A stretch of 64,000 bases of DNA from Eledone cirrhosa (lineage: Eukaryota), in the NCBI GenBank assembly GCA_964016885.1, contig OZ024746.1, positions 9,796,001 to 9,860,000 of the forward strand, read 5' to 3'. This document shows positions 30,761-31,124 of the stretch, piece after piece (positions within the stretch are counted from its first letter, which is position 1; every line of letters starts with the position of its first letter). The translations under genes were made by a program, and so were the position numbers. The notes under the pieces were generated by a model. That model saw only the letters and a program-made list of their open reading frames with translations. It did no database searches and had not been told where the DNA came from.

Positions 30761-31120
30761 ATTAGAAAGTGAGGTTTTTTTTACAAAATGAAAAATAACC
30801 AAGGTGTCCTACACGAGTGGAAGTATAAAGAAAAAGGGATGAAATCGAAAATGCAACTGAAGTCTTATTTTTTTTTTAAATATATATATTTATTTGGTTC
30901 CTTTACCGGTTTCGCAGTTCTTCTGCTTTTCAAAAGGTGAGTTGAGATGGAGGGTCTGTGGTTTTTCTCACATCATGTGAGAAAAACCACAGACCCTCCA
31001 TCTCAACTCACCTTTTGAAAAGCAGAAGAACTGCGAAACCGGTAAAGGAACCAAATAAATATATATATTTTTTAAAAAAATAAGACTTCAGTTGCATTTT
31101 CGATTTCATCCCTTTTTCTT

Positions 31121-31124
<4 letters not shown>
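30761..31124. mobile_element. Element family H2 with near-perfect hairpin, about 150-bp arms (apex 30974)
   Basis: Arms 30824-30973 and 30975-31124, flanked by (TA)n. Confidence 0.9.
31011..31048 (+). ncRNA. Minimal hammerhead motif with U3-A8 core (mirror copy at 30900-30937 on -)
   Basis: cctt-TTGAAAA-gcag-aagaa-ctgc-GAAA-ccgg-TA-aagg. All three stems pair. Confidence 0.72.

What the first reader, a model, noticed from the sequence alone, without database searches (positions are those of the whole stretch)
30761..31124. Family H2: hammerhead with natural U3-A8 covariant core inside a 300-bp hairpin
Seen: cctt-TTGAAAA-gcag-aagaa-ctgc-GAAA-ccgg-TA|aagg at 31011-31048 (+) and 30900-30937 (-). 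The same core is at 8080-8117 and 43708-43745 (-). CUGAnGA is replaced by UUGAAAA in all four instances, so C3 to U and G8 to A change together. Established: positions 3 and 8 form a tertiary Watson-Crick pair, and compensatory U3-A8 cores can retain activity. A strict CUGAnGA search would miss this family. Inference: the double change indicates selection for catalysis in the parent element.
Basis: partly seen in the sequence, partly recalled or inferred. Interest (0 to 1): 0.8.

Follow-up and report, generated by a model that had tools for sequence, protein, structure and literature searches.

The report
Penelope-element hammerhead with U3-A8 core
This hairpin is a short, likely inert stub of a very abundant jumping gene whose tail carries a small predicted self-cutting RNA with one core base pair swapped from C-G to U-A, a swap already published for such elements, so it is a new example of a known kind.

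Summary
The motif and hairpin are real. They are the 3' pseudo-LTR of a young Neptune-type Penelope-like retrotransposon (RT plus GIY-YIG, intact copies exist; 11,012 exact motif matches), here as a 5'-truncated copy fused to an inverted copy that lacks the 63-nt tail, in an intron of a T-type calcium channel gene. The four window copies show shared descent, not covariation. Covariation appears between families: related elements carry a hammerhead at the same place, 21 C3-G8 and 3 U3-A8 of 26, and the U3-A8 ones do not form one clade (AU p=2e-7). Natural U3-A8 cores are published (Perreault 2011; Cervera 2014, in Penelope elements), and this scan noted them before in other genomes. Against simple selection for catalysis: a small old sub-lineage spread with a mismatched C3-A8 core, U3 can pair with A17, and most short copies begin about 40 nt upstream of the core, so their templates were likely uncut. 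Cleavage is untested; it probably needs a dimer or the element's protein. In this copy the RNA would be locked in the hairpin. New member of a known kind; low interest.

The parts
30761..30974 (-). 5'-truncated copy of the element's 3' pseudo-LTR, 214 nt, with tail (element positions 1-214)
   Evidence: 97% identical to the 3' end of the RT-GIY-YIG element in L031 and of intact copy L250
30761..30823 (-). 63-nt one-sided tail between the two preferred 3' ends (likely the two reverse-transcription start sites)
   Evidence: 3' ends of 100 anchored copies: 60 at >=196, 37 at 141-156, 3 elsewhere; mechanism from PMC11167929
30900..30937 (-). U3-A8 minimal type I hammerhead motif, left arm; antisense to the host gene
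30975..31124 (+). Inverted 5' copy of the pseudo-LTR, 150 nt, no tail (element positions 2-151)
   Evidence: 98% identical to the left arm; 11 of 30 top loci have such an inverted partner ending at 149-151
31011..31048 (+). U3-A8 minimal type I hammerhead motif, right arm: stem I 31011-31014/31045-31048, core 31015-31021, stem II 31022-31034, G12-A15.1 31035-31038, palindrome 31038-31043, predicted cut after 31044
30824..31124 (.). 301-nt near-perfect inverted repeat formed by the two arms
31125..31147 (.). (TA)n run flanking the insertion; a shorter one lies left of 30761 (target microsatellite)
   Evidence: same flanks in nearly all loci
7947..8153 (-). Second insertion of the family, single copy, motif at 8080-8117 with 3-bp stem I
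   Evidence: 88.5% identity
43584..43781 (-). Third insertion of the family, single copy, motif at 43708-43745 with 3-bp stem I and G10.1-U11.1
   Evidence: 87.6% identity

Best explanation
The locus is a 5'-truncated insertion of a Neptune-type Penelope-like retrotransposon joined head to head to an inverted copy of itself, and each arm carries the element's minimal hammerhead motif, which is predicted to cut weakly, and only as a dimer or with help from the element's protein. Shown: the 214-nt arm is the 3' end of an element with ORF1, a 775-codon RT-GIY-YIG frame and a 1.0-1.3 kb 3' region; related elements have a hammerhead at the same place; the 3-8 pair switched between C-G and U-A about four times on the RT tree. 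Inferred: in tandem elements two same-strand copies pair through the 6-nt palindrome to form a double hammerhead that would cut after A17 and process long transcripts; cutting is likely not needed for each insertion. Inferred: transcription starts about 40 nt upstream of the core in the upstream pseudo-LTR, reverse transcription starts at one of two internal sites (151 or 214) and runs off that 5' end, which gives the many short copies and, with both start sites used on opposite strands, the hairpin. In this copy the two motifs lie on opposite strands and any transcript through both arms would fold as a 150-bp duplex, so it is likely inert. Odds: identity of the element about 0.95; measurable cleavage of a dimer or protein-assisted construct about 0.6.
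For: Element: L031 holds inverted copy + RT (DKG, YLDD) + CX4CxxC linker + GIY-YIG (Pfam 29.1 bits, cut-off 22.6) + 3' region ending in the window's sequence at 97%. 25 of 30 best RT loci have the motif in sense downstream of the stop. 16 of 16 fetched intact loci have a 775-aa frame; 11 have an inverted copy upstream, 4 have two sense motifs around an ORF. 11,012 exact motif matches and 19,774 matches to a downstream 16-mer, 0 for reversed controls. Related elements (40-53% identity): motif in the first 600 nt after the stop in 29 of 40 evaluable loci, against 15 of 2000 shuffles and 1 of 40 antisense; 26 non-redundant: 21 C3-G8, 3 U3-A8, 1 U3-G8, 1 doubtful G3-G8, 0 C3-A8; with this family Fisher p=3e-4, relatedness ignored. 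U3-A8 needs 4 changes on the tree, one clade rejected, p-AU 2.3e-7; L159 (U-A) is sister to L214 (C-G) at 100/100. U3-A8 in 77 of 80 older-subfamily copies. Palindrome duplex -8.3 kcal/mol and cofold gives the strand-exchanged dimer. 53 of 75 visible 5' junctions lie at element positions -7 to +12. Published precedent.
Against: No cleavage data. All 23 copies found with C3 and the upstream flank have A8, none G8; 6 of them on different chromosomes share diagnostic changes, so a master with a mismatched core transposed. Run X12 (another organism) shows T to C at position 3 in 70% of contig depth with no row at position 8, though on the same run did not list it. Older subfamilies have only a 3-bp stem II, mostly closed by G-U, and a 3-bp stem I. 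The monomer and dimer minimum-energy folds pair U3 with A17, like the C3-G17 trap of PMC3884650. Between old and young subfamilies the core is not clearly better kept than its flanks, since divergence is low. The 150- and 214-nt arms fold no better than shuffles (z 1.05, 0.42). Only 5 of 75 junctions lie near the cut site. The start-site reading of the 5' hot spot rests on no RNA data.
Confidence: 0.6

Rival explanations
1. Same element, but in this lineage the hammerhead is a relic or a purely structural/protein-binding signal: G8 drifted to A in an A/T-rich element, the mismatched core did not stop transposition, and C3 to U followed by drift. The family does not cut.
For: Old C3-A8 sub-lineage; possible major C3 form in run X12; weak stems in older subfamilies; U3-A17 alternative pair; templates mostly uncut; hammerhead mutants do not affect insertion in vitro for an anole element (PMC11167929); Naiad elements thrive without hammerheads (PMC8557442).
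Against: Across 26 related elements no C3-A8 and repeated joint switches; all 13 core positions and the palindrome are kept in every large subfamily; the youngest subfamilies have the more canonical stems (G10.1-C11.1, 4-bp stem II, 4-bp stem I); the C3-A8 group is small (at most 23 found).
Confidence: 0.32
2. The 300-nt hairpin is itself the functional unit: a fold-back DNA element (MITE-like) or a host-used double-stranded RNA in the calcium-channel intron (editing or small-RNA substrate).
For: Near-perfect 150-bp duplex; lies between channel exons at 27949-28872 and 62462-62635 on the + strand, so it would be transcribed.
Against: Arms are unequal and are the 3' end of an RT element; junction points differ among loci and many copies are single; inverted 5' copies are a known product of Penelope insertion; the copy is 97-100% identical to others, so very recent; Rfam microRNA hits are far below their cut-offs.
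Confidence: 0.06
3. The hammerhead resemblance is chance in an A-rich repeat.
For: Short stems, A-rich core, no hammerhead family among the 150 of 400 Rfam matches listed.
Against: Positional homology with canonical hammerheads in related elements, some with the same helix III palindrome (L148, L161); 29 of 40 against 15 of 2000 shuffles.
Confidence: 0.02

Closest known systems
U3-A8 minimal hammerheads of Cercyon Penelope-like elements in Schistosoma mansoni (Cervera and De la Pena 2014, PMC4209133; about 1,300 hits)
   Same: Type I minimal hammerhead in a Penelope pseudo-LTR, U3-A8 instead of C3-G8, 4-5 bp helix I, mostly solitary truncated copies, pairs on opposite strands 100-700 bp apart, predicted dimer.
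   Different: Here a Neptune-type element in a probable octopod; helix II is 4 bp not 7-8, no extra base after A9, a 4-nt palindrome in helix III; one very uniform young family of more than 11,000 copies rather than heterogeneous motifs.
Natural U3-A8 hammerheads (Perreault et al. 2011, PMC3088659)
   Same: Same covariation of the 3-8 core pair; the paper states such cores had been shown active in vitro.
   Different: Whether those examples share this short-helix, dimer-type architecture was not checked (passages only); activity there does not transfer to a motif with a 2-bp helix III.
Poseidon element PAc of Anolis carolinensis (Frangieh et al. 2024, PMC11167929)
   Same: Two internal RT start sites that define a tail, AT-rich targets, hammerhead in the pseudo-LTR, uncut RNA as the main template.
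   Different: PAc has C3-G8, a 30-40 nt tail and the ORF starting inside stem II; here the tail is 63 nt, ORF1 starts after the tail, and there are two overlapping ORFs.
Neptune clade of Penelope-like elements (as described in Craig et al. 2021, PMC8557442)
   Same: C-terminal GIY-YIG, CX2-5CxxC linker, CCHH motif, tandem and inverted pseudo-LTRs, one-sided tail, (TA)n targets, hammerhead near the 3' end.
   Different: Not placed against named Neptune and Nematis references; the core variant is not described there for cephalopods.
Non-LTR retrozymes of animals
   Same: Type I hammerhead needing two copies; proposed to derive from Penelope pseudo-LTRs (bioRxiv 10.64898/2026.07.22.740005).
   Different: Retrozymes are head-to-tail tandem arrays; these copies are dispersed, single or inverted, and linked to a coding element.

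Membership tests
Penelope-type minimal type I hammerhead | Core U4 G5 A6 N7, A9, G12 A13 A14, A15.1-U16.1, H17 | tested here: met
Penelope-type minimal type I hammerhead | Watson-Crick pair between positions 3 and 8 | tested here: met
   U3-A8 in this copy, in about 99% of 11,012 matches and 77 of 80 older copies; exception: small C3-A8 group
Penelope-type minimal type I hammerhead | Helix I of 4-5 bp and helix II closed by G10.1-C11.1 | tested here: met
   4 bp each in this copy; 3 bp and often G-U in older copies
Penelope-type minimal type I hammerhead | Minimal palindromic helix III that allows a dimer | tested here: met
   6-nt palindrome, duplex -8.3 kcal/mol, cofold dimer
Penelope-type minimal type I hammerhead | Located in the pseudo-LTR of a Penelope-like element, sense to the ORF | tested here: met
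Penelope-type minimal type I hammerhead | Self-cleavage after position 17 | not testable with these tools
   no assay; genomic 5'-junction footprint inconclusive
S. mansoni Cercyon U3-A8 subtype | 7-8 bp helix II with an unpaired base after A9 | tested here: not met
   4-bp helix II, no extra base; same core variant, different family
Neptune-type Penelope-like element | RT with DKG motif followed by C-terminal GIY-YIG with CCHH motif | tested here: met
   (RVT_1 21.6 bits is below its cut-off 29.6; homologues carry PF00078 and PF01541)
Neptune-type Penelope-like element | CX2-5CxxC linker before the endonuclease | tested here: met
   C-x4-C-x2-C; definition (shared with Nematis)
Neptune-type Penelope-like element | Tandem and inverted pseudo-LTRs, one-sided tail, (TA)n targets | tested here: met
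Neptune-type Penelope-like element | RT groups with named Neptune references rather than Nematis | not tested
   no named reference set at hand; trees hold unnamed relatives only
Non-LTR retrozyme | Head-to-tail tandem array of short hammerhead-bearing monomers, no ORF | tested here: not met
MITE / fold-back DNA transposon | Fixed terminal inverted repeats at both ends of a constant unit | tested here: not met
   arms unequal, junction variable, sequence is the 3' end of an RT element

The most novel reading that the evidence does not exclude
This one genome preserves a compensatory path caught in the act: a C3-G8 ancestor, an old C3-A8 mismatched master that still transposed, then U3-A8 followed by stepwise repair of stems II and I in the subfamilies that expanded to more than 11,000 copies; and the piled-up 5' ends map the element's transcription start and show that uncut RNA is the template in vivo. 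The natural series would test directly what the Penelope hammerhead is for.
Probability: 0.25. Interest if true: 0.45.

Novelty: new member of a known kind. Interest (0 to 1): 0.22.

Why it matters
As a core variant it matters little: natural U3-A8 hammerheads, including in Penelope elements, are in print. It adds a cephalopod Neptune-type example, evidence that the 3-8 pair has flipped several times independently in these elements, and a young family with intact coding copies. The role of the hammerhead in Penelope elements is open; a natural set of C3-A8, weak-stem U3-A8 and strong-stem U3-A8 subfamilies of different success would be handy test material. Practical point: C3-G8-only descriptors miss one of the largest hammerhead families of this genome.

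Tried and rejected
Rfam scan: no hammerhead family among the 150 of 400 matches listed, only sub-threshold microRNA hits on hairpins and TA runs. Repeat finder swamped by microsatellites. C3-G8 sibling with the same stem II and helix III in the own genome: 0. Within-family covariation test: uninformative, singles at decay level. Sequencing runs: no RNA holder listed, which says nothing about expression. Laying contigs of other organisms: disagree about position 3 in run X12; X14 and X17 gave no cover, X15 one contig. Cleavage footprint in genomic 5' junctions: by hand count 43 of 100 listed rows (250 matches) at position 72, 17 of 100 (147) at 66, 14 of 100 (372) at 56, i.e. about 108, 25 and 52; a 2-4-fold excess that A/T microhomology and a rising background toward the 3' end could explain; under 1% of copies; not accepted as evidence. 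A second, HDV-like ribozyme at the 5' hot spot: no such pairing seen by eye, no fold signal; rejected. Helitron or MITE reading: rejected once the RT was found. Mixture-model tree did not finish its careful search; LG+G4 tree used. Direction of the C3-A8 group (ancestral or derived) not settled: pairwise distance 0.155 (n=6) against 0.114 old U3 (n=49), 0.109 other C3 (n=10) and 0.034 young (n=51) over only 31 nt. Przybilski and Hammann 2007 not held. No earlier notes on this genome.

Full report
Observation. At 31011-31048 (+) and 30900-30937 (-) it has a 4-bp stem I, U3 at 31015, A8 at 31020, a 4-bp stem II closed by G-C, a 6-nt palindrome as helix III and A17 at 31044. The hairpin is 30824-31124, with 3 mismatches in 150 columns. 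The left arm has 63 further bases (30761-30823) with no partner. The copies at 8080 and 43708 are 88% identical over about 210 nt, with 3-bp stem I. So the four motifs are three insertions of one family and their agreement is descent.

What it is. A search of the own genome (3.0 Gb) returned near-identical copies, all ending at the same 3' base in (TA)n; 11 of the 30 loci fetched have an inverted partner that ends at element position 149-151. Several extend upstream. L031 holds the whole element: inverted copy, an RT with DKG and YLDD motifs, a C-x4-C-x2-C linker, a GIY-YIG domain (Pfam above cut-off; RVT_1 below cut-off) and a 1.3-kb 3' region ending in the window's 214 nt at 97% identity; that copy has one frameshift in the RT. 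Named homologues include Octopus bimaculoides (78%) and Argonauta (61%), so the host is probably an octopod (inference). A protein search gave 89 scored loci, 32 of them by hand count with an unbroken 775-aa frame; 25 of the 30 fetched have the motif in sense downstream of the stop. In 16 of 16 longer stretches the 775-aa frame is intact; 11 have an inverted copy upstream and 4 have two same-strand motifs around an ORF. A 409-codon ORF1 frame starts right after the tail and overlaps the RT frame. These are the features given for Neptune/Nematis-type Penelope-like elements in PMC8557442 (passages), including the inverted 5'-truncated copy and the one-sided tail. Counts: 11,012 exact motif matches, 19,774 for a downstream 16-mer, 902 for an older-subfamily 27-mer, 0 for reversed controls. 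The locus lies between an exon matching T-type calcium channels (27949-28872, E 1e-29) and an Ion_trans exon (62462-62635; 1 strong hit among 78 frames scanned), both on the + strand, so it is likely intronic.

Positions 3 and 8 inside the family. With the rest of the motif exact, 84 matches have a non-U at 3 (hand count 42 C) and 38 a non-A at 8 (15 G); C3-G8 is absent, 0.06 expected. This is decay and tests nothing. In 80 of 97 older-subfamily anchors that cover the core, 77 are U3-A8 and none C3. These older copies have a 3-bp stem II, mostly closed by G-U, and a 3-bp stem I; the youngest have 4 bp in both. A search for C3 with the upstream flank found 23 copies, all with A8. I read 20 of them; three are one tandem chimera, and six on different chromosomes share several diagnostic changes, so a master with a mismatched C3-A8 core transposed. 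They look older, but 31 nt and six copies do not fix the direction. In another organism's contigs position 3 reads C in 70% of depth with no row at 8, yet an earlier laying of the same run did not list this; unresolved.

Positions 3 and 8 between families. An alignment of 31 RT-endonuclease proteins fetched 72 loci from metagenome and MAG contigs. 43 reach the end of the ORF and 40 have at least 100 nt after it. A descriptor with 3 and 8 left free found a motif in 29 of 40, in 15 of 2000 shuffles and 1 of 40 antisense strands. After merging three near-duplicate pairs (one of them, L174, re-read in its tied C3-G8 register) 26 remain: 21 C3-G8, 3 U3-A8, 1 U3-G8, 1 doubtful G3-G8, no C3-A8; L177 is a further U3-A8 candidate that failed the stem II rule. 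With this family added and the doubtful row left out, Fisher p=3e-4, relatedness ignored. On a tree of 28 rows (duplicates L169, L180, L192 left out, L177 added) U3-A8 needs 4 changes, 3 forced by strongly supported branches, and one clade is rejected (p-AU 2.3e-7; similar quick tree). So the motif is a true positional homologue of canonical hammerheads and the pair has flipped repeatedly. Other hammerhead families in this genome's loci are C3-G8 (31 of 35 remaining hits; 3 were variants of this family).

How it likely works. Helix III cannot close in a monomer; the palindrome forms a -8.3 kcal/mol duplex and two copies cofold as a strand-exchanged dimer. Tandem elements supply two sense copies. 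Published minimal Penelope hammerheads show no monomer activity and low dimer activity (PMC4209133, parts 1-2 of 4 read, no figures or supplements); the anole element's cuts only with protein, and uncut RNA is the main insertion template, with two internal RT start sites making the tail (PMC11167929, main text read). The copies here fit that: of 100 anchored copies 60 end at the tail end and 37 at about 151; 53 of the 75 visible 5' junctions lie within -7 to +12, about 40 nt upstream of U3, and 5 near the cut site. I infer run-off at the transcript's 5' end in the upstream pseudo-LTR. A genome-wide look for junctions at the cut site gave a weak excess that I do not accept. Cautions on activity: both minimum-energy folds pair U3 with A17, like the C3-G17 trap described in PMC3884650 (passages); the arms fold no better than shuffles. 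In this copy the motifs are on opposite strands and the 301-nt RNA folds as one hairpin at -246.7 kcal/mol, so it is likely inert.

What is known. Cervera and De la Pena 2014 report a U3-A8 variant in Cercyon Penelope elements of Schistosoma mansoni with about 1,300 hits. Perreault et al. 2011 report natural U3-A8 covariation and cite earlier in vitro activity (passages); the cited paper was not held. Searches of the held library for an octopod case (hammerhead+Penelope+octopus; hammerhead+U3-A8) listed none; subscription papers, repeat databases and unread supplements may hold one. The retrozyme preprint was read in part 1 of 5; PMC7151607 passages were not used. Seven earlier notes of this scan report the same variant in other genomes; they are unchecked and agree.

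Verdict. Observation confirmed, interpretation partly supported, new member of a known kind. The extras worth keeping are the repeated independent flips, the C3-A8 sub-lineage and the 5'-end hot spot. Interest 0.22.

Noticed in passing
window 27949-28872 (+), 62462-62635 (+), probably 4951-5367 (+): Exons of a T-type (Cav3) calcium channel gene; the finding and many other repeats lie in its introns. The 4951 frame is assigned by recall only.
   Followed up: partly
window 31163-31248 and on to about 31350; fuller copies in L004, L019, L127, L272, L298: A second small inverted insertion next to the finding, from another repeat family. Fuller copies read as a hammerhead with A at position 4 (C3-G8 kept), U-U closing stem II and a real helix III; the window copy starts inside the core.
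   Followed up: partly
window 44189 (+), 51549 (+), 6976 (-), 43213 (+), 20609 (-): Other hammerhead-like motifs with canonical C3-G8 cores, from at least four further repeat families.
   Followed up: partly
element positions -7 to +12 (window about 30974/30975): Strong hot spot of 5' ends, 53 of 75 visible junctions; possibly the transcription start of the element.
   Followed up: partly
L263, L271, L272, L276, L277, L279: Old sub-lineage with C3-A8 core, mostly U10.1-U11.1 as in several distant relatives, and a longer (up to 7-bp) stem I.
   Followed up: partly
L250 3140-8046, overlap of ORF1 and the RT frame: ORF1 and the RT frame overlap by 88 nt in the -1 frame, with a U UUU UUA heptamer followed by a hairpin: candidate programmed frameshift (slippery-site rule recalled).
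   Followed up: partly
L154 (U3-G8 with an extra U), L177, L159, L162, L216: Further variant cores in related marine-invertebrate-type elements; many relatives close stem II with U-U instead of G-C.
   Followed up: partly
L213-L216; proteins P0018, P0054, P0065, P0070, P0086, P0087: Penelope-type RT-GIY-YIG elements filed in bacterial MAGs and symbiont assemblies, likely host DNA contamination.
   Followed up: no
window 1-900; 16693-17133 and 21505-21833; 35369-35572 and six relatives: A 39-nt tandem array, a 112-nt tandem repeat family, and a dispersed about 200-nt repeat, part of which also sits in the 3' region of L031.
   Followed up: no
window 18727-19884 (-): Frame that runs from a microsatellite into sequence resembling a non-LTR retrotransposon RT (resemblance recalled, not tested).
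   Followed up: no
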